Virus record (IMG/VR): IMGVR_UViG_3300010396_000037
Length of the DNA stretch: 64,000 nt
Source: a virus
Direction: 5' to 3' (one strand)
Shown here: positions 39,405 through 43,376 of the stretch, piece after piece
Layout: the number at the start of each line of letters is the position of its first letter
Position numbering within the stretch: position 1 is the stretch's first letter
Position numbers and translations under genes: made by a program
The notes under the pieces: generated by a model
The model's input: the letters and a program-made list of their open reading frames with translations, nothing else
Database searches by the model: none
What the model was told of the DNA's origin: nothing

Positions 39405-39487
39405 GCGGCTGTAACCGAGGGGAGCTTCTACCTCCTTACACGTAACTGGAGTTGAGAATGCGGGTTCGAATCCTGCCAGCCGCGCCA
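39405..39487 (+). tRNA. rearranged tRNA-Arg(TCT), no D arm at the normal position
   Basis: Perfect acceptor and T arm; anticodon arm follows TAACC; GTAACTGGAG lies after the anticodon arm. Confidence 0.75.
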
Positions 39488-39492
39488 ATTTT

Positions 39493-39569
39493 GCCCATGT
39501 AGCTCAATTGAATAGAGCAGTCCTTTCCTAGGGGAATGGTTGGGAGTTTGAGTCTCTCCATGGGCGCCA
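39493..39569 (+). tRNA. tRNA-Arg(CCT)
   Basis: Cloverleaf, GCCA. Confidence 0.88.
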
Positions 39570-39586
39570 AATAAAAAGGTATTCAC

Positions 39587-39778
39587 ATGAGCATAAGTTC
39601 ATCCCGAACACCAGAAGAGGCTCTTCTAGAATGTGATAGACTGATAACTTACTATCAATCTGTTATGAATGCATCTATTGTATCTGATCTAAATCCTACA
39701 GCTGCGCGTGATCTTTTATATTCTGCGATTGCTGTGAAGAGAGACATTCAATTAAGAATCAGAAATAATTCTAACTGA
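39587..39778 (+). CDS. hypothetical protein
   Basis: AAGG RBS. Confidence 0.6.
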   Translation: MSISSSRTPEEALLECDRLITYYQSVMNASIVSDLNPTAARDLLYSAIAVKRDIQLRIRNNSN

Positions 39779-39856
39779 CATTTATCACTCGTTAATAAAT
39801 CTTTAGTGAATTACGGTATAATAATTCCTGTTGAATCAACTCTACTGGAGAATATC

Positions 39857-40180
39857 ATGGACACGCATGCTCAAGTCGTTAAAGCTATGCAGCAACTTTT
39901 GAAGAATCCTGACTTGTGTGTGAACGTATGCTGGGAAATAGCAGCTAACTGCCCAGTCTATTTTCTTCAAGCTGTTGATGAAGTATGCCCAGATATCAAA
40001 GAAGCATCATTACCCTTGGTCGAAAGAGTGCGCAAATTAGCTTACTCACTTCCCCGTTCCGACTCCAGCGTAGGCAAGGTTGAGTTCATCAAAGCCCATC
40101 GCCAATTGACAAAGATGGGGTTAAAAGAATCAAAAGACTGGGTAGAAGCCAACTGGGCTGAATTTGGTCCACGCTGTTAA
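39857..40180 (+). CDS. protein with ribosomal L7/L12 C-terminal-like domain
   Basis: KVEFIKAHRQLTKMGLKESKDWVE matches K...IK..R..T..GLKE.KD.VE. Confidence 0.7.
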   Translation: MDTHAQVVKAMQQLLKNPDLCVNVCWEIAANCPVYFLQAVDEVCPDIKEASLPLVERVRKLAYSLPRSDSSVGKVEFIKAHRQLTKMGLKESKDWVEANWAEFGPRC

Positions 40181-40218
40181 AAAGCAATAAATGACTTCAG
40201 TTCTTCAATGATTGATTT

Positions 40219-40361
40219 GAAACTTGGCGGCGTGGAGAGTAGACACGCACTTGCATGCAGGAGTGGCCTGCCACCGGGAGCCCTATTTAAGATTCACTGG
40301 CGGATCGTACCCACGACAATAATCAAAACGCGCAGTTGGAGTAACGCCCAACCCAAGTTTC
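40219..40361 (+). ncRNA. tRNA-shaped ncRNA candidate
   Basis: GAAACTTGG/CCAAGTTTC stem, GCGTG/CACGC and GTTGG/CCAAC arms, T-run after. Confidence 0.6.
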
Positions 40362-40379
40362 CCTTTTTTGGAACCAATC

Positions 40380-40677
40380 ATGAATAATATGAAAATTCGC
40401 TATCATAAGGAAGATGTAGATCAAACCATTAAATGAATCAAGCAATACAATCCATATTACGACTCTAGACAAGCGAAATGGTCAGATGACGCTATCCGGA
40501 AGTCTATTATGGATAGCATTGAGATAATGCGTGACTCAGAAGTGCCGTGGACTTCAACCATGGGGTATGTGATTTTTTAAATGTTTTGATGATGAAGAAG
40601 GTTTCATTGATGTAGAGATCGCGATGAATTGCAATTTGCCTCGCAATATAATCCAAGAACCCATTATTTTGAGCTGA
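40380..40677 (+). pseudogene. disrupted hypothetical gene
   Basis: In-frame TGA at 40434 and apparent frameshift at T6 near 40573. Confidence 0.5.
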
Positions 40678-40679
40678 TC

Positions 40680-40892
40680 ATGAATACTATTGAATTAACT
40701 CCAGAGTTCATTGATGCTGTGAGTGCAGGTGCTAGTGCACTTGTAACTATGGCAGAAGAACTTCAGAGAAATGAACATTACAACGAAGACGGCCCAATCG
40801 GAGAATTGGTTCGAAAAACTGTTGAAAGCAACTATCAAAAAGTTGACCTCTTGAGAGGTTGGCTGGTACGAATTGAAGGAAAAGAAAAGTAA
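40680..40892 (+). CDS. hypothetical protein
   Basis: ORF in operon. Confidence 0.65.
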   Translation: MNTIELTPEFIDAVSAGASALVTMAEELQRNEHYNEDGPIGELVRKTVESNYQKVDLLRGWLVRIEGKEK

Positions 40893-41296
40893 TGAGAGCT
40901 TATACAATTGTTAATATGTACATGCAGGGCATTCATGCCGGCATTCAAAGTGCGCATATCTTGTCTGAAATGGCGTTGGATTCTGCAAGCAAACCAGATC
41001 ATAAATCTGCTGCGACTTTCTACAGTTGGGCAACGAACGACAAGACTCTCATTGTACTGAATGGCGGTAGCAACAAAAATCTTCGCAAGATGATGGATTT
41101 GATTGAACCTGCTTGCGATAAGCTTGATTTGCCTTTCGCTTACTTCACTGAATCAGAAGAAGCTTTGGATGGGGCATTGACTGGATTTGGATTGATTGTT
41201 CCGTCAAGGATCTATGAATCTGGTGTCGCTAATGACTACCGCACTTCTGAAAACAGTATTTCAAGTTGCCTAAATTTGCTTCAATTAGCGCGATAA
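40892..41296 (+). CDS. Pth2-like (peptidyl-tRNA hydrolase II fold) protein
   Basis: G..AGIQSAH...W....KT.IVL.GG...F.E...L...T..G pattern. Confidence 0.6.
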   Translation: MRAYTIVNMYMQGIHAGIQSAHILSEMALDSASKPDHKSAATFYSWATNDKTLIVLNGGSNKNLRKMMDLIEPACDKLDLPFAYFTESEEALDGALTGFGLIVPSRIYESGVANDYRTSENSISSCLNLLQLAR

Positions 41297-41303
41297 TAAA
41301 TTT

Positions 41304-41397
41304 GGTCCTGTAGTGTAATTGGAAGCACCGACTGCCTTATAAACAGTGAGCGCCAGATTAGCGCCGAGCGTGGGTTCGATTCCCACTGGGACCACCA
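41304..41397 (+). tRNA. tRNA-Ile(TAT) with long variable arm
   Basis: Loop CT-TAT-AA, GCGC/GCGC V-arm, ACCA. Confidence 0.8.
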
Positions 41398-41620: not shown

Positions 41621-41626
41621 ATTCTT

Positions 41627-41703
41627 GGGCCTATAGCTCAATTGGTTAGAGCAGGGGACTCATAATCCCTTGGTTCTAGGTTCGAGTCCTAGTGGGCCCA
41701 CCA
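41627..41703 (+). tRNA. tRNA-Ile2(CAT), lysidine type probable
   Basis: Canonical; GGGCCTA acceptor typical of Ile2. Confidence 0.88.
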
Positions 41704-41711
41704 AATAGGAA

Positions 41712-41993
41712 ATGATTATGGAGATTAACGCTGTTATTACAACTGCAGAACATCGCACTGTAGATATACGTGTTGAAGATGTATTTGAAATATTCTGGAG
41801 AAAGATCATTAACAAGTTTGGTGTACCAGCAAAAGCATACATAAATTTAGACGGCATGTGGGAAACTTGGGAAGACACAGGTCACGGTTCAGGCATATAT
41901 GATACTATCCGGAAGGCAACACCAGAAGAAGTGAGTGTGGTTGGCGCATTTGCAAAAATGCGTGAGTTTATTAGGGATAAATATGAACGCTGA
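41712..41993 (+). CDS. hypothetical protein
   Basis: HGSG...IRKAT.EE motif; RBS. Confidence 0.65.
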   Translation: MIMEINAVITTAEHRTVDIRVEDVFEIFWRKIINKFGVPAKAYINLDGMWETWEDTGHGSGIYDTIRKATPEEVSVVGAFAKMREFIRDKYER

Positions 41994-42201
41994 AGATAAT
42001 TTGCTTGATAATATTGACTATCTAAAACAGAAGTTGAATGAAGCAAGGGAAGAATTGGAACGGATGAAGAACAATATCAAAAATGCTCAACCAGTGACAG
42101 TCAATTCCCTGAATTACATGAAAGACGTCCTAGAAGGTTATTACGAAATTGGCATTGGCCGCTATCCAAAACCCAATTACGTGTTTTTGCATGTTGACTG
42201 A
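41983..42201 (+). CDS. hypothetical protein
   Basis: ORF in operon. Confidence 0.6.
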   Translation: MNAEDNLLDNIDYLKQKLNEAREELERMKNNIKNAQPVTVNSLNYMKDVLEGYYEIGIGRYPKPNYVFLHVD

Positions 42202-42277
42202 CGTTTAACTTAGATTAAGTTATCTTACTTAAAATGTAGTATAATTACTCCTGTTGACAAACTTACTGGAGTACGTC

Positions 42278-42631
42278 ATGAACATCAATCGTTGGAAAAT
42301 CAAGGATTTCAAAGAAGCCGAAAAGGTTGCTGAGAAGTTGACTGAGGAAACGTTGGTGCGCCATGTCGCAGTTGATGCGGGCTCAAATGTTTTTCCACGC
42401 TTTGGTGCTATTCGCGTACCACAAGTTGGTGATGCTGTCAGTTATGCTTTCAATGGTGACTATTATCCTGATGGCTACATCGCCTCCGTTTCCAGTGGAG
42501 TCAAGATGGTTATCAAGACTTCTAAAGGCCACGTGTATTATCGCCACTTGAAGACTGGCTGTTGGATCATGAAAGGTGGCACATGGCGTTTGGTCGATGG
42601 CCATCGTAGCGAATTGAATCCCAGTTTCTGA
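42278..42631 (+). CDS. hypothetical protein (SH3-like C-half)
   Basis: Promoter 42205-42245 plus RBS; P.VGD.VSY.FNGDYYP..LNPSF. Confidence 0.75.
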   Translation: MNINRWKIKDFKEAEKVAEKLTEETLVRHVAVDAGSNVFPRFGAIRVPQVGDAVSYAFNGDYYPDGYIASVSSGVKMVIKTSKGHVYYRHLKTGCWIMKGGTWRLVDGHRSELNPSF

Positions 42632-42653
42632 GAATAGAAGTAAGGAGAGCAAT

Positions 42654-42827
42654 GTGTTAGCCGAAGCCAGTTATCCATACCAAGATTGGGAGACTGAAGT
42701 CTTGCAAGATTTTCCCAATGCTGAATTCACTGACAATGATGCAATCGCCGTGGTGAATGGGGTTGAAACTCTTGTTTCGACGTATTATCCGCATCAAAAC
42801 TTTGCTCGTTGGTGGCTGGAGAAATGA
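42654..42827 (+). CDS. hypothetical protein
   Basis: GTG start, AAGGAG RBS, 57 aa. Confidence 0.55.
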   Translation: MLAEASYPYQDWETEVLQDFPNAEFTDNDAIAVVNGVETLVSTYYPHQNFARWWLEK

Positions 42828-42828
42828 C

Positions 42829-43047
42829 ATGTATGACTCTATCTACACTCACAGAGAACGCACAGTAGCCAATCATACAATTGGCGAAGCTCTTGAAAGT
42901 GCAAAACGCAGGCTGATTGAAAAGGATTTTGGTGGCTATTTCTGTGTTGATTCAATTAGCAATCGTTCCTTGCATGACAAAATCACTCTGGAAGAGCTAA
43001 ATAACATTGCTGAAAGAATAGTGGAAGATAGCTTGTATTATGACTGA
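42829..43047 (+). CDS. hypothetical protein
   Basis: GGAG RBS. Confidence 0.6.
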   Translation: MYDSIYTHRERTVANHTIGEALESAKRRLIEKDFGGYFCVDSISNRSLHDKITLEELNNIAERIVEDSLYYD

Positions 43048-43055
43048 TGATATGT

Positions 43056-43129
43056 TGGGGATTAGTTCAATGGTAGAATAGATGGCTCTGAACCATCAGA
43101 CAGCAGATCGATACTGCTATCCCCTGCCA
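43056..43129 (+). tRNA. tRNA-Gln(CTG)
   Basis: Cloverleaf, GCCA. Confidence 0.9.
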
Positions 43130-43295
43130 TTTATGGAGCTGAGATAATGAATTACAAGTTATATCTTCTGCTGTGTGCTGTATCTGGTTTAAATTGTGGA
43201 TTTTTATCCACTCTCTTGCTACATCAATAATCGTCAATTTAATCATTTGTGGTTTGTTGAGCGCAGTTTACTTGGTATGCAAGGAAAATTAATCT

Positions 43296-43376
43296 ACCCG
43301 TGTAACCAGCATCGCTACGAACGATGACTAAGGTAATTGGAGGCAGATGCAGGTTCGAATCCTGTCGCGGGTGCCA
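43296..43376 (+). tRNA. rearranged tRNA-Arg(ACG), no D arm at the normal position
   Basis: Acceptor, TAACC, CATCG-CTACGAA-CGATG, GGTAATTGGAG, canonical T arm, GCCA. Confidence 0.78.

What the first reader, a model, noticed from the sequence alone, without database searches (positions are those of the whole stretch)
39405..43376. Two tRNA-Arg genes with the D-loop relocated 3' of the anticodon arm
Seen: Arg-TCT (39405-39487) and Arg-ACG (43296-43376) differ in acceptor and anticodon sequence but share one layout: acceptor-TAACC-anticodon arm-GTAA(C/T)TGGAG-linker-canonical T arm-GCCA. AC(C) can pair with (G)GT beyond the anticodon arm, and AAYTGGA matches a normal Arg D-loop (compare AATGGATA in Arg-CCG). 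No conventional ACG or TCT tRNA is present in the window. Known: G18G19 contact the T-loop and A20 is the main ArgRS determinant. Inference: a topologically rewired tRNA that rebuilds the L-shape with a different strand order, likely missed by tRNA finders and possibly resistant to tRNA-Arg nucleases.
Basis: partly seen in the sequence, partly recalled or inferred. Interest (0 to 1): 0.88.

Follow-up and report, generated by a model that had tools for sequence, protein, structure and literature searches.

The report
Rewired phage arginine tRNA genes
Two genes in this soil phage's tRNA cluster look like working arginine tRNAs, but their D-loop and half of the D-stem lie after the anticodon arm instead of before it. 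This non-cloverleaf design is shared by well over a hundred phages, is mostly missed by gene finders, and appears in no paper I could search.

Summary
Genes at 39405-39487 (anticodon UCU) and 43296-43376 (ACG) have a 7-bp acceptor stem, a normal anticodon loop, a canonical T arm and encoded CCA. They have no D hairpin, and UAAYUGGA lies 3' of the anticodon arm.

They belong to a large, almost phage-only family of 120 distinct sequences, carrying Arg UCU/ACG/UCG/CCU and Ile GAU/UAU anticodons.

- The nucleotides after U8-A9 pair with the two nucleotides just 5' of UAAYUGGA (239/240 cells, four Watson-Crick types).
- In the UCU class, A10-C11 also pair with the G-U just 3' of that motif.

So the D-stem closes around the anticodon arm and the D-loop is an 8-nt bulge.

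The bulge behaves as a true D-loop:
- R15 covaries with the last linker base, like the R15-Y48 Levitt pair (A/U 96, G/C 24, no exception).
- The base after GG is A in 92/93 Arg members (the ArgRS determinant A20) and U in 26/27 Ile members.

The two genes would read 85% of the Arg codons in the window's long ORFs. Charging, decoding and the 3D fold are untested, and nuclease resistance is speculation.

This scan has met the same family many times on other DNA.

The parts
39405..39487 (+). Rewired tRNA-Arg(UCU) gene, 83 nt with encoded CCA (two-base helix-a class)
   Evidence: Sequence. Rfam tRNA 32.9 bits with the D arm deleted. Family model R1 92.5 bits. Not called by default ARAGORN.
39405..39411 (+). 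Gene 1 acceptor stem, 5' strand; pairs with 39477-39483. Discriminator G at 39484, CCA at 39485-39487.
   Evidence: 7/7 pairs. In the class alignment all 7 acceptor pairs show changes on both sides.
39412..39417 (+). Gene 1: U8 A9, then the 5' strand of the re-threaded D-stem (A10 C11 C12 G13)
   Evidence: Pairs 10-51 GC19/AU14, 11-50 CG31/UG2, 12-41 CG33, 13-40 GC29/AU4 in 33 distinct sequences, all paired. Permutation p<5e-5.
39419..39437 (+). Gene 1 anticodon arm: 6-bp stem (39419-39424 / 39432-39437), loop CUUCUAC, anticodon UCU at 39427-39429
   Evidence: All six stem pairs covary. The loop has U33 and A37.
39441..39452 (+). Gene 1: C-G (pair with G13, C12), then the bulged D-loop U A14 A15 C U G18 G19 A20 (39443-39450), then G-U (pair with C11, A10)
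   Evidence: R15/Y48 covariation and the Arg-specific A20.
39453..39459 (+). Gene 1 linker UGAGAAU (class consensus U-G-N-A-A-A-U). Its last U is the Y48 partner of A15.
   Evidence: Nearly invariant in the class. The last base covaries with position 15 in 120/120 sequences. Longer relatives carry a small hairpin here, as in a variable arm.
39460..39476 (+). Gene 1 T arm: GCGGG-UUCGAAU-CCUGC
   Evidence: Canonical T-loop. Three of the five T-stem pairs covary in the class.
43296..43376 (+). Rewired tRNA-Arg(ACG) gene, 81 nt with encoded CCA (one-base helix-a class, all ACG)
   Evidence: Sequence. Rfam tRNA 31.8 bits only with permissive filters and not reported in gathering mode. R1 55.4 bits. 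38 distinct class members.
43296..43302 (+). Gene 2 acceptor stem, 5' strand; pairs with 43366-43372 (one G.U). Discriminator G at 43373, CCA at 43374-43376.
   Evidence: 7/7 pairs. All 7 acceptor pairs covary in the class.
43303..43309 (+). Gene 2: U8 A9 A10, then C11 C12 (pair with G43333, G43332), then A13 G14 (pair with U43329, C43328 across bulged A43327)
   Evidence: 11-39 and 12-38 are CG in 38/38. 14-34 is CG21/GC8. 13-35 is AU in 10. The analogous helix covaries in the other classes.
43310..43326 (+). Gene 2 anticodon arm core: CAUCG / CGAUG, loop CUACGAA, anticodon ACG at 43317-43319
   Evidence: All 5 stem pairs covary. From memory, the loop equals that of E. coli tRNA-Arg(ICG), the TadA substrate.
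43332..43342 (+). Gene 2: G-G (pair with C12, C11), then the bulged D-loop U A14 A15 U U G18 G19 A20 (43334-43341), then G43342 opposite A10 (A.G here)
   Evidence: Class pair 10-48: UA13, AU7, GC4, UG3, CG1, other 10.
43343..43348 (+). Gene 2 linker GCAGAU. Its last U is the Y48 partner of A15.
43349..43365 (+). Gene 2 T arm: GCAGG-UUCGAAU-CCUGU
   Evidence: Canonical T-loop, essentially invariant in the class. Part of this arm was fixed by the search pattern.

Best explanation
Both genes encode arginine tRNAs of a phage-borne, non-cloverleaf design. They most likely serve as the phage's main Arg decoders: UCU for AGA, and ACG (probably deaminated to ICG) for CGU, CGC and CGA.

Proposed secondary structure:
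- The acceptor stem, anticodon loop and T arm are standard.
- After U8-A9, one or two bases (helix a, 5' strand) are followed by two or three bases (helix b, 5' strand) that run straight into the anticodon stem.
- On the way back, the strand leaving the anticodon stem pairs with helix b. It then bulges out as U-A14-R15-Y-U-G18-G19-N20, the D-loop. It then pairs with helix a and runs through a conserved linker ending in Y48 into the T stem.
- The D-stem therefore closes around the anticodon arm instead of forming its own hairpin.

Inferred 3D logic (not shown):
- Helix b stacks on the anticodon stem.
- Counting an A9-U pair, helix b, the internal-loop layer and the anticodon stem gives 10 stacked layers below U8-A14 in the sequences I counted by hand from each class. 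A normal tRNA also has 10 (4 + 1 + 5).
- The bulged D-loop keeps U8-A14, R15-Y48 and the G18G19 contacts with the T-loop, so the elbow and arm lengths of the L are preserved.
- Host ArgRS would read A20, C35 and the third anticodon base as usual.

Shown here: gene integrity, family membership, helices a and b, R15-Y48 covariation and isotype-specific determinants.

Inferred: the fold, charging, decoding and I34 formation.
For: Family and conservation:
- 67 + 60 + at least 120 viral contigs were hit by three motif patterns.
- They yield 120 distinct members with Arg UCU/ACG/UCG/CCU or Ile GAU/UAU anticodons.
- Acceptor, anticodon and T stems covary throughout.

Helix b, tested with a rule fixed beforehand:
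- 239/240 cells pair. The second pair is GC 50, CG 47, AU 14, UA 9.
- In the 23 sequences that match none of the search patterns, 46/46 cells pair.
- Shifted registers give 13-59%.

Helix a:
- Gene 1 class: 10-51 is GC19/AU14 and 11-50 is CG31/UG2, with no exception.
- Gene 2 class: 28/38 paired, using four Watson-Crick types (permutation p=5e-5).

D-loop identity:
- R15 against the last linker base is A/U 96 and G/C 24, with no exception. Both states occur within Ile.
- The base after GG is A in 92/93 Arg members and U in 26/27 Ile members.
- The discriminator is A in 27/27 Ile members.
- A20 for ArgRS and A73 for IleRS are known identity elements (my knowledge; review PMC9976931 not re-read here).

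Role in the phage:
- Both genes sit in a same-strand tRNA array and encode CCA.
- No canonical UCU or ACG gene is in the window.
- AGA + CGU + CGC + CGA make up 329 of 389 Arg codons in the long ORFs.
- In other loci with at least 10 tRNAs, the rewired gene is the only one with its anticodon in 36 of 39 cases.

Plausibility: E. coli HisRS, EF-Tu and the ribosome accept an engineered D-armless tRNA (PMC11551756).
Against: - No RNA data exist. The window comes from a soil metagenome and no RNA run holds it. Expression, processing, charging and decoding are therefore unobserved.
- Nearest-neighbour energies do not favour the model: -21.6 against an MFE of -27.6 kcal/mol for gene 1, and -22.5 against -24.5 for gene 2.
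- In gene 2 the helix-a position is an A.G mismatch. C11-G and C12-G are invariant in its class, so they carry no covariation of their own.
- A9 and the U before A14 never vary, so the A9-U layer and the 10-layer count are inference only.
- The sequences were gathered with motif patterns that fixed the D-loop and T-loop. Conservation of those two elements is therefore partly imposed.
- The discriminator in Arg members is U in 50 of 93, which is not the A/G usual for E. coli tRNA-Arg (my knowledge).
- Related sequences inflate covariation counts.
Confidence: 0.7

Rival explanations
1. They are conserved tRNA look-alikes that are not used for decoding. They could be decoys that soak up host tRNA-directed nucleases or modification enzymes, or regulatory or Y-RNA-like molecules.
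For: - Nothing shows charging or decoding.
- Phage tRNA arrays are known to hold non-decoding tRNA-like RNAs. This window itself has 97-nt and 123-nt tRNA-like genes with large inserts.
- A weak YrlA-model hit overlaps the 3' part of gene 1 (23.4 bits).
Against: - The YrlA hit is far below its cut-off of 69 and spans the T arm plus the start of the next tRNA.
- A decoy would not need isotype-specific synthetase determinants away from the anticodon, yet A20 occurs only in Arg members and A73 in all Ile members.
- It would not need an encoded CCA.
- It would not need to be the sole gene for the commonest Arg codons.
Confidence: 0.13
2. They are working tRNAs, but the GG-bearing segment is only a long variable region and does not act as a D-loop. 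The molecule would then be a floppy D-armless tRNA like those of animal mitochondria.
For: - Rfam aligns the segment as a variable-region insertion.
- Thermodynamic folding does not form helices a and b.
- D-armless tRNAs can work in bacteria (PMC11551756).
Against: - R15/Y48 covaries in 120/120, GG is invariant, the base at position 20 is isotype-specific, and the T-loop is fully canonical.
- Helices a and b flank the segment with covariation.
- Mitochondrial D-armless tRNAs lack the G18G19/T-loop pairing partners (review PMC7609411).
Confidence: 0.1
3. They are decayed or rearranged pseudogenes of ordinary tRNA-Arg genes.
For: They score low with standard models, and ARAGORN rejects them.
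Against: - 120 distinct sequences keep every stem through compensatory changes.
- The layout recurs in phages of Microbacterium, Vibrio, Xanthomonas, Stenotrophomonas and Rhizobium.
- Up to four members occur in one phage.
Confidence: 0.02
4. The gene order is permuted or interrupted, and processing (splicing, or cutting and rejoining) yields an ordinary cloverleaf tRNA.
For: Permuted and intron-containing tRNA genes exist in algae and archaea. This phage also has a permuted tmRNA.
Against: - The acceptor halves lie at the two ends of an 80-nt unit, so there is no circular permutation.
- There is no spare sequence. The unit is only about 4-6 nt longer than a normal tRNA, and nothing could supply a normal D-stem 3' strand ahead of the anticodon arm.
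- No bulge-helix-bulge or group I features were seen.
Confidence: 0.02

Closest known systems
Canonical bacterial and phage tRNA-Arg (Rfam RF00005), e.g. this window's own Arg(CCG) at 38975-39049 and Arg(CCU) at 39493-39569
   Same: 7-bp acceptor stem; U8; G/A10-C/U25 and C11-G24 pairs; D-loop A14 R15 ... G18 G19 A20; 7-nt anticodon loop with U33 and A37; R15-Y48; 5-bp T stem with a UUCGAAU loop; discriminator plus CCA; location in the tRNA array.
   Different: The strand order differs. The anticodon arm lies between D-stem positions 13 and 22 instead of after position 26. The D-loop is a bulge rather than a hairpin loop. There is no A21, and the anticodon stem is lengthened. It scores 32-33 bits against 44-73 bits for the ordinary genes.
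D-armless mitochondrial tRNAs (e.g. [quoted passage not shown]
   Same: No D hairpin between the acceptor and anticodon stems. Some have an extended anticodon stem.
   Different: Those tRNAs have lost the D-loop and its T-loop partners, are flexible, and need adapted mitochondrial factors. Here G18G19, R15-Y48 and a canonical T-loop are all kept, and the genes are in phages of bacteria.
Engineered 'mini HisT', a D-armless tRNA used by evolved E. coli (PMC11551756)
   Same: It shows that a bacterial synthetase, EF-Tu and the ribosome tolerate a non-cloverleaf core.
   Different: It is artificial, lacks any D-loop, and needed a pnp mutation for stability. That paper states that all known bacterial tRNAs are cloverleaves.
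Other natural non-canonical tRNAs: tRNA-Sec, tRNA-Pyl and allo-tRNAs (PMC7609411, PMC5389517)
   Same: Natural, functional departures from standard arm lengths.
   Different: All of them keep the cloverleaf strand order, with a D hairpin before the anticodon arm.
YrlA / Y-RNA tRNA-like domains (Rfam RF02553)
   Same: tRNA-like RNAs that occur in phage tRNA clusters.
   Different: They are not adaptors. The model scores only 23.4 bits here against a cut-off of 69.

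Membership tests
tRNA (Rfam RF00005, canonical cloverleaf) | Score at or above the curated gathering cut-off (29 bits) | tested here: met
   32.9 and 31.8 bits. With Rfam's standard filters only gene 1 is reported.
tRNA (Rfam RF00005, canonical cloverleaf) | D hairpin (stem 10-13/22-25 enclosing loop 14-21) between the acceptor and anticodon arms | tested here: not met
   5 nt where the model expects 15. The D arm is deleted in the alignment.
tRNA (Rfam RF00005, canonical cloverleaf) | 7-bp acceptor stem, 7-nt anticodon loop with U33 and R37, 5-bp T stem with a T-Psi-C loop, discriminator plus CCA | tested here: met
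tRNA (functional adaptor) | Aminoacylation by ArgRS and decoding on the ribosome | not testable with these tools
   No RNA run is listed. Only indirect signs exist: A20, C35, CCA, codon usage and being the sole gene for its anticodon.
Rewired-D-arm phage tRNA class (unpublished; defined here and in earlier notes of this scan) | U8-A9, then 11 or 12 nt to the anticodon loop with no D hairpin | tested here: met
   Gene 1 has 12 nt and gene 2 has 11 nt. All 120 members have 11 or 12.
Rewired-D-arm phage tRNA class (unpublished; defined here and in earlier notes of this scan) | Helix b: the bases after the helix-a bases pair with the two bases immediately 5' of U-A14 | tested here: met
   Gene 1: C12-G, G13-C. 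Gene 2: C11-G, C12-G. Family: 239/240 cells.
Rewired-D-arm phage tRNA class (unpublished; defined here and in earlier notes of this scan) | Helix a: the base or bases after A9 pair with the base or bases right after position 20 | tested here: inconclusive
   Met in gene 1 (A10-U, C11-G; class 100%). Gene 2 has A.G there, while its class pairs in 28/38.
Rewired-D-arm phage tRNA class (unpublished; defined here and in earlier notes of this scan) | Bulged D-loop U-A14-R15-...-G18-G19, with R15 matched to the last linker base (Y48) | tested here: met
   Both genes have A15/U48. Family: A/U 96, G/C 24.
Rewired-D-arm phage tRNA class (unpublished; defined here and in earlier notes of this scan) | Family covariance model R1 scores above ordinary tRNAs | tested here: met
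   92.5 and 55.4 bits. Ordinary tRNAs score at most 38 in the loci (one 41.8-bit, 72-nt hit in a MAG) and at most 39.5 in 151 bacterial genomes. Gene 1 was in the training set.
D-armless mitochondrial-type tRNA | Loss of the D-loop/T-loop interaction elements (no G18G19, reduced T-loop) | tested here: not met
   GG and the canonical UUCGAAU loop are kept, and R15-Y48 covaries.
Circularly permuted or intron-split tRNA gene | Acceptor halves internal or joined by a linker, or an excisable insert that leaves a cloverleaf | tested here: not met
   The acceptor strands are terminal, and no removable segment yields a cloverleaf.
YrlA / Y RNA-like (RF02553) | Score at or above 69 bits | tested here: not met
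   23.4 bits, spanning the T arm and the next gene.

The most novel reading that the evidence does not exclude
A natural, widespread tRNA fold that is not a cloverleaf works unaltered in bacterial translation. Phages may keep it for Arg and Ile because the re-threaded core makes these tRNAs invisible to, or uncuttable by, host enzymes that recognise the normal D-arm or core (defence nucleases, turnover RNases or modification enzymes), while ArgRS/IleRS, EF-Tu and the ribosome still accept them.
Probability: 0.25. Interest if true: 0.92.

Novelty: new variant of a known kind. Interest (0 to 1): 0.8.

Why it matters
- **Against the textbook.** Textbooks, and a 2024 paper (PMC11551756), state that all bacterial-type tRNAs are cloverleaves. 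This would be a natural adaptor family that keeps the parts of a tRNA but joins them in a different order.
- **A test of what the machinery reads.** It would show whether synthetases, EF-Tu, RNase P, TadA and the ribosome read the 3D shape rather than the strand topology.
- **Annotation.** Phage tRNA repertoires are under-counted. Here the two commonest Arg decoders are missed, which distorts codon-usage and host-dependence analyses.
- **Engineering.** The design offers a ready-made scaffold for orthogonal tRNAs.
- **An open question.** Why do phages, and only for Arg, Ile and perhaps Met, prefer this design? The question is testable in cultured carriers.

Tried and rejected
- **Megablast** of 38900-43500 against GenBank phages: no match. 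The phage has no close cultured relative.
- **Whole genome:** not held, so tRNA genes outside the window could not be checked.
- **Sequencing runs:** only three DNA soil-metagenome runs hold the stretch, and no RNA holder is listed.
- **Single-sequence MFE folding** recovers neither the anticodon arm of gene 1 nor helices a and b. It is uninformative.
rejected.
- **Pseudogene, permuted-gene and intron readings:** rejected (see rival explanations).
- **Genome contigs pattern scan**, 16 hits:
  - About half are ordinary class II tRNA-Ser variable arms or an unrelated Paenibacillus tRNA-like gene.
  - True members lie only on MAG contigs, mostly short (2-17 kb, one of 79 kb).
- **Neighbouring ORFs:** no tRNA-specific enzyme.
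- **Eight literature searches** found no description of this layout.
- **Covariation between A9 and the U before A14:** both are invariant, even when not imposed, so nothing can be learned from them.
- **3D geometry:** I reasoned through three arrangements by hand, with no tool.
  - I rejected a canonical-orientation D-stem with the anticodon arm on top, because of a clash with the elbow.
  - I could not settle between a fully coaxial 4-bp D-stem and a model with helix a extruded.

Full report
**What is in the window.**
- The window is part of a T4-like phage from a soil metagenome (42.98% GC). It carries a same-strand array of about 30 tRNA genes and a permuted tmRNA.
- The two elements sit in gaps of that array at exactly the stated coordinates.
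- Each has:
  - a perfect 7-bp acceptor stem (one G.U in gene 2);
  - U8-A9;
  - a 7-nt anticodon loop with U33 and A37 (CU-UCU-AC and CU-ACG-AA);
  - a canonical T arm (UUCGAAU loop);
  - discriminator G and an encoded CCA.
- Neither has a D hairpin. Only 5-7 nt separate the acceptor from the anticodon stem, and GUAAYUGGAG lies 3' of the anticodon arm.

**How gene finders treat them.**
- Rfam's tRNA model aligns them end to end with the D arm deleted and about 20 nt inserted in the variable region. Scores are 32.9 and 31.8 bits against a cut-off of 29.
- With Rfam's standard filters only gene 1 is reported.
- ARAGORN calls neither gene at default settings. In relaxed mode it calls gene 1 'tRNA-???'.
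- No canonical UCU or ACG tRNA is in the window.

**It is a family, not an accident.**
- The pattern GTAAYTGGAG-N4-14-GGTTCGAATCC hits 67 IMG/VR contigs. These give 49 distinct sequences, nearly all with a 7/7 acceptor stem at the right distance and an Arg anticodon.
- A covariance model built from 33 of them (R1) found further members in the same loci that do not match the pattern. They include Ile(GAU), Ile(UAU) and one CAU gene, with up to four members per phage.
- Two more patterns brought 60 and at least 120 further contigs.
- A structure-based scan of all fetched loci gives 120 distinct members: ACG 48, UCU 35, UAU 16, GAU 11, UCG 7, CCU 3.

**Cultured phages carry unannotated copies.**
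- Homologues occur in Microbacterium phages Zooman and Pumpernickel, Vibrio phages D260/D254/D51, Xanthomonas phages XacN1, Xoo-sp13 and X1, Stenotrophomonas phages CM1 and RAS14, and Rhizobium phage RHph_I1_18.
- In each case no tRNA feature is annotated under the match.
- In XacN1 and Pumpernickel the copy sits between annotated tRNA genes.
- ARAGORN overlaps only 8 of 80 members in the fetched loci, mostly with wrong ends or '???'.

**Phage specificity.**
- In one genome per species (185,579 species), the first pattern hit 16 places.
- About half were class II tRNA-Ser variable arms or an unrelated gene.
- The true members all lie on MAG contigs, mostly short: 2-17 kb, with one of 79 kb.
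- R1 run over 151 genomes of one bacterial phylum found nothing above 39.5 bits, and every hit was 70-74 nt long, which is ordinary tRNA length. Family members score at least 41.7 bits in the loci.
- The sample is small and pattern-biased, so 'almost phage-only' is the fair wording.

**Secondary structure, gene 1 class (33 distinct sequences, alignment A1).**
- All seven acceptor pairs, all six anticodon-stem pairs and three T-stem pairs covary.
- Four further pairs are formed in every sequence:

| Pair | Partner position | Counts |
|---|---|---|
| R10 | Y following GGAG | GC 19, AU 14 |
| C11 | G of GGAG | CG 31, UG 2 |
| C12 | G of GUAA | CG 33 |
| R13 | base before that G | GC 29, AU 4 |

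- So the 5' strand R10-C11-C12-R13 pairs with Y-G [U-A-A-Y-U-G-G-A] G-Y. This is a 4-bp D-stem whose 3' strand is interrupted by the D-loop as an 8-nt bulge, and whose far end opens into the anticodon arm.

**Secondary structure, gene 2 class (38 distinct sequences, all ACG, alignment A2).**
- C11-G and C12-G are invariant.
- The anticodon stem is extended by a covarying pair across a bulged A (CG 21, GC 8).
- Position 10 pairs with the base right after GGA: UA 13, AU 7, GC 4, UG 3, CG 1, unpaired 10 (permutation p=5e-5).
- In gene 2 itself position 10 faces G, an A.G mismatch.

**A rule fixed beforehand.**
- The rule has two parts:
  - The number of helix-a bases equals the strand length minus 10.
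  - Helix b is the next two bases, paired with the two bases 5' of U-A14.
- Helix b pairs in 239 of 240 cells. The second pair uses all four Watson-Crick types.
- In the 23 sequences that match none of my search patterns, 46 of 46 cells pair.
- Shifted registers give 13-59%.
- The 5' strand was never part of any search pattern, so this complementarity is an independent observation.

**The bulge is a real D-loop.**
- Position 15 and the last base before the T stem covary without exception: A/U 96 and G/C 24. Both states occur among the Ile members (24 G/C, 3 A/U). This is the signature of the R15-Y48 Levitt pair of normal tRNAs.
- GG is invariant.
- The base after GG is A in 92 of 93 Arg members and U in 26 of 27 Ile members.
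- The discriminator is A in 27 of 27 Ile members.
- From my knowledge, A20 is the major ArgRS determinant and A73 an IleRS determinant in E. coli.
- Isotype-specific determinants outside the anticodon are what one expects of RNAs that are charged, not of decoys.
- The linker after helix a (U-G-N-A-A-A-U in gene 1's class) is nearly invariant. In longer relatives it holds a small hairpin, as a variable arm would.

**How it probably folds (inference).**
- I counted A9 paired with the invariant U before A14, then helix b, then one internal-loop layer, then the anticodon stem. By hand this gives 10 stacked layers in representatives of each class.
- A normal tRNA has the same number below U8-A14: a 4-bp D-stem, the 26-44 layer and a 5-bp anticodon stem.
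- In this picture the returning strand runs helix b, U, A14, A15 just as 11-12-13-14-15 do in a normal tRNA. The D-loop follows its usual path to the T-loop. A20 leads straight into helix a near the place of A21/G22.
- A fully coaxial 4-bp D-stem is the alternative. By my hand estimate it strains the G19-A20-G24 connection.
- Neither arrangement is shown. A9 and that U never vary, and nearest-neighbour energies do not favour the model.

**Likely role.**
- In the window's 36 long ORFs the Arg codons are AGA 117, CGU 111, CGC 73, AGG 39, CGA 28 and CGG 21.
- UCU and ACG (as ICG) would read 85% of them.
- The array's canonical Arg(CCG) and Arg(CCU) would cover the rest.
- In other loci with at least 10 tRNAs, the rewired gene is the sole gene with its anticodon in 36 of 39 cases.
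- The best reading is therefore that these are the phage's main arginine tRNAs.
- Why phages use this design is unknown. The nuclease-evasion idea is untested, and the anticodon loops are ordinary.

**Literature and earlier notes.**
- Eight full-text searches found no description of this layout.
- The review of non-canonical tRNAs does not mention phages.
- A 2024 paper states that all known bacterial tRNAs are cloverleaves, while showing that E. coli tolerates an engineered D-armless tRNA.
- This scan has already reported the same family many times on other DNA, with the same general reading.
- A later check of a related Tyr class stressed that nobody has seen such an RNA charged or read. I have set the odds on function with that in mind.

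**Verdict.**
- The design is a new variant of tRNA as far as the searchable literature goes.
- Function as a charged decoder is probable (about 0.7) but unproven.

Noticed in passing
window 9517-9919: Permuted (two-piece) tmRNA gene in the phage. ARAGORN reports the tag ANDNAYDLALAA, and Rfam tmRNA_permuted scores 106.5 bits against a cut-off of 47.
   Followed up: partly
window 38837-38959: A 123-nt tRNA-like gene (Rfam tRNA 29.8 bits). It has a normal acceptor, D arm and T arm, but a roughly 50-nt structured insert where the anticodon arm should be. ARAGORN does not call it.
   Followed up: no
window 36344-36440: A 97-nt tRNA hit (41.9 bits) with a long insert after the D arm. It lies inside the region another first-reader note (e1-5763221) describes as a scaffold carrying tRNA-like cargo.
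   Followed up: no
window 32063-32136, 36124-36194, 44324-44394, 34306-34376: tRNA genes missed by default ARAGORN. The first three have unusual T-loops (GGAGCGAAGCC, GGAGCGTAACC, GGATCGAAACC) and appear to carry Pro(UGG), Val(UAC) and Gln(UUG) anticodons. The fourth has an odd anticodon loop, which ARAGORN reports as '???'.
   Followed up: partly
window 41304-41397: tRNA-Ile(UAU) of 94 nt with a normal D arm (GTAATTGGAA in the usual place) and a long extra arm. In this phage Ile(UAU) is therefore canonical-type, whereas other phages use a rewired version.
   Followed up: no
window 39806-40180 (+): A 124-aa ORF inside the tRNA array with a borderline match to the ribosomal protein L7/L12 C-terminal domain (25.8 bits, cut-off 25.9).
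   Followed up: no
L044 5301-6238; L076 1650-1926; L054 1126-1945; L001 3917-5578: Single uncultured phages carry three or four rewired tRNAs side by side (Arg UCU/ACG/UCG/CCU plus Ile UAU/GAU). L044 also has a canonical Arg(UCU) directly beside the rewired one.
   Followed up: partly
L022 918-1008, L035 1952-2042, L012 5764-5853, L030 2803-2892: Members of 89-91 nt carry an extra small hairpin (often with a GAAA-type loop) inside the linker between helix a and Y48. This amounts to a rewired tRNA with a variable arm.
   Followed up: partly
L006 4321-4397: A rewired-type gene with a CAU anticodon (Met, or Ile after lysidine formation) and D-loop UAAUCGGU. It suggests the design extends to a third isotype.
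   Followed up: no
L070, L079, L080, L083, L069 (bacterial MAG chromosomes): The D-loop-like motif GTAAYTGGAG also occurs by chance in the long variable arm of ordinary class II tRNA-Ser genes of Chloroflexota. These are false positives for motif-only searches.
   Followed up: yes
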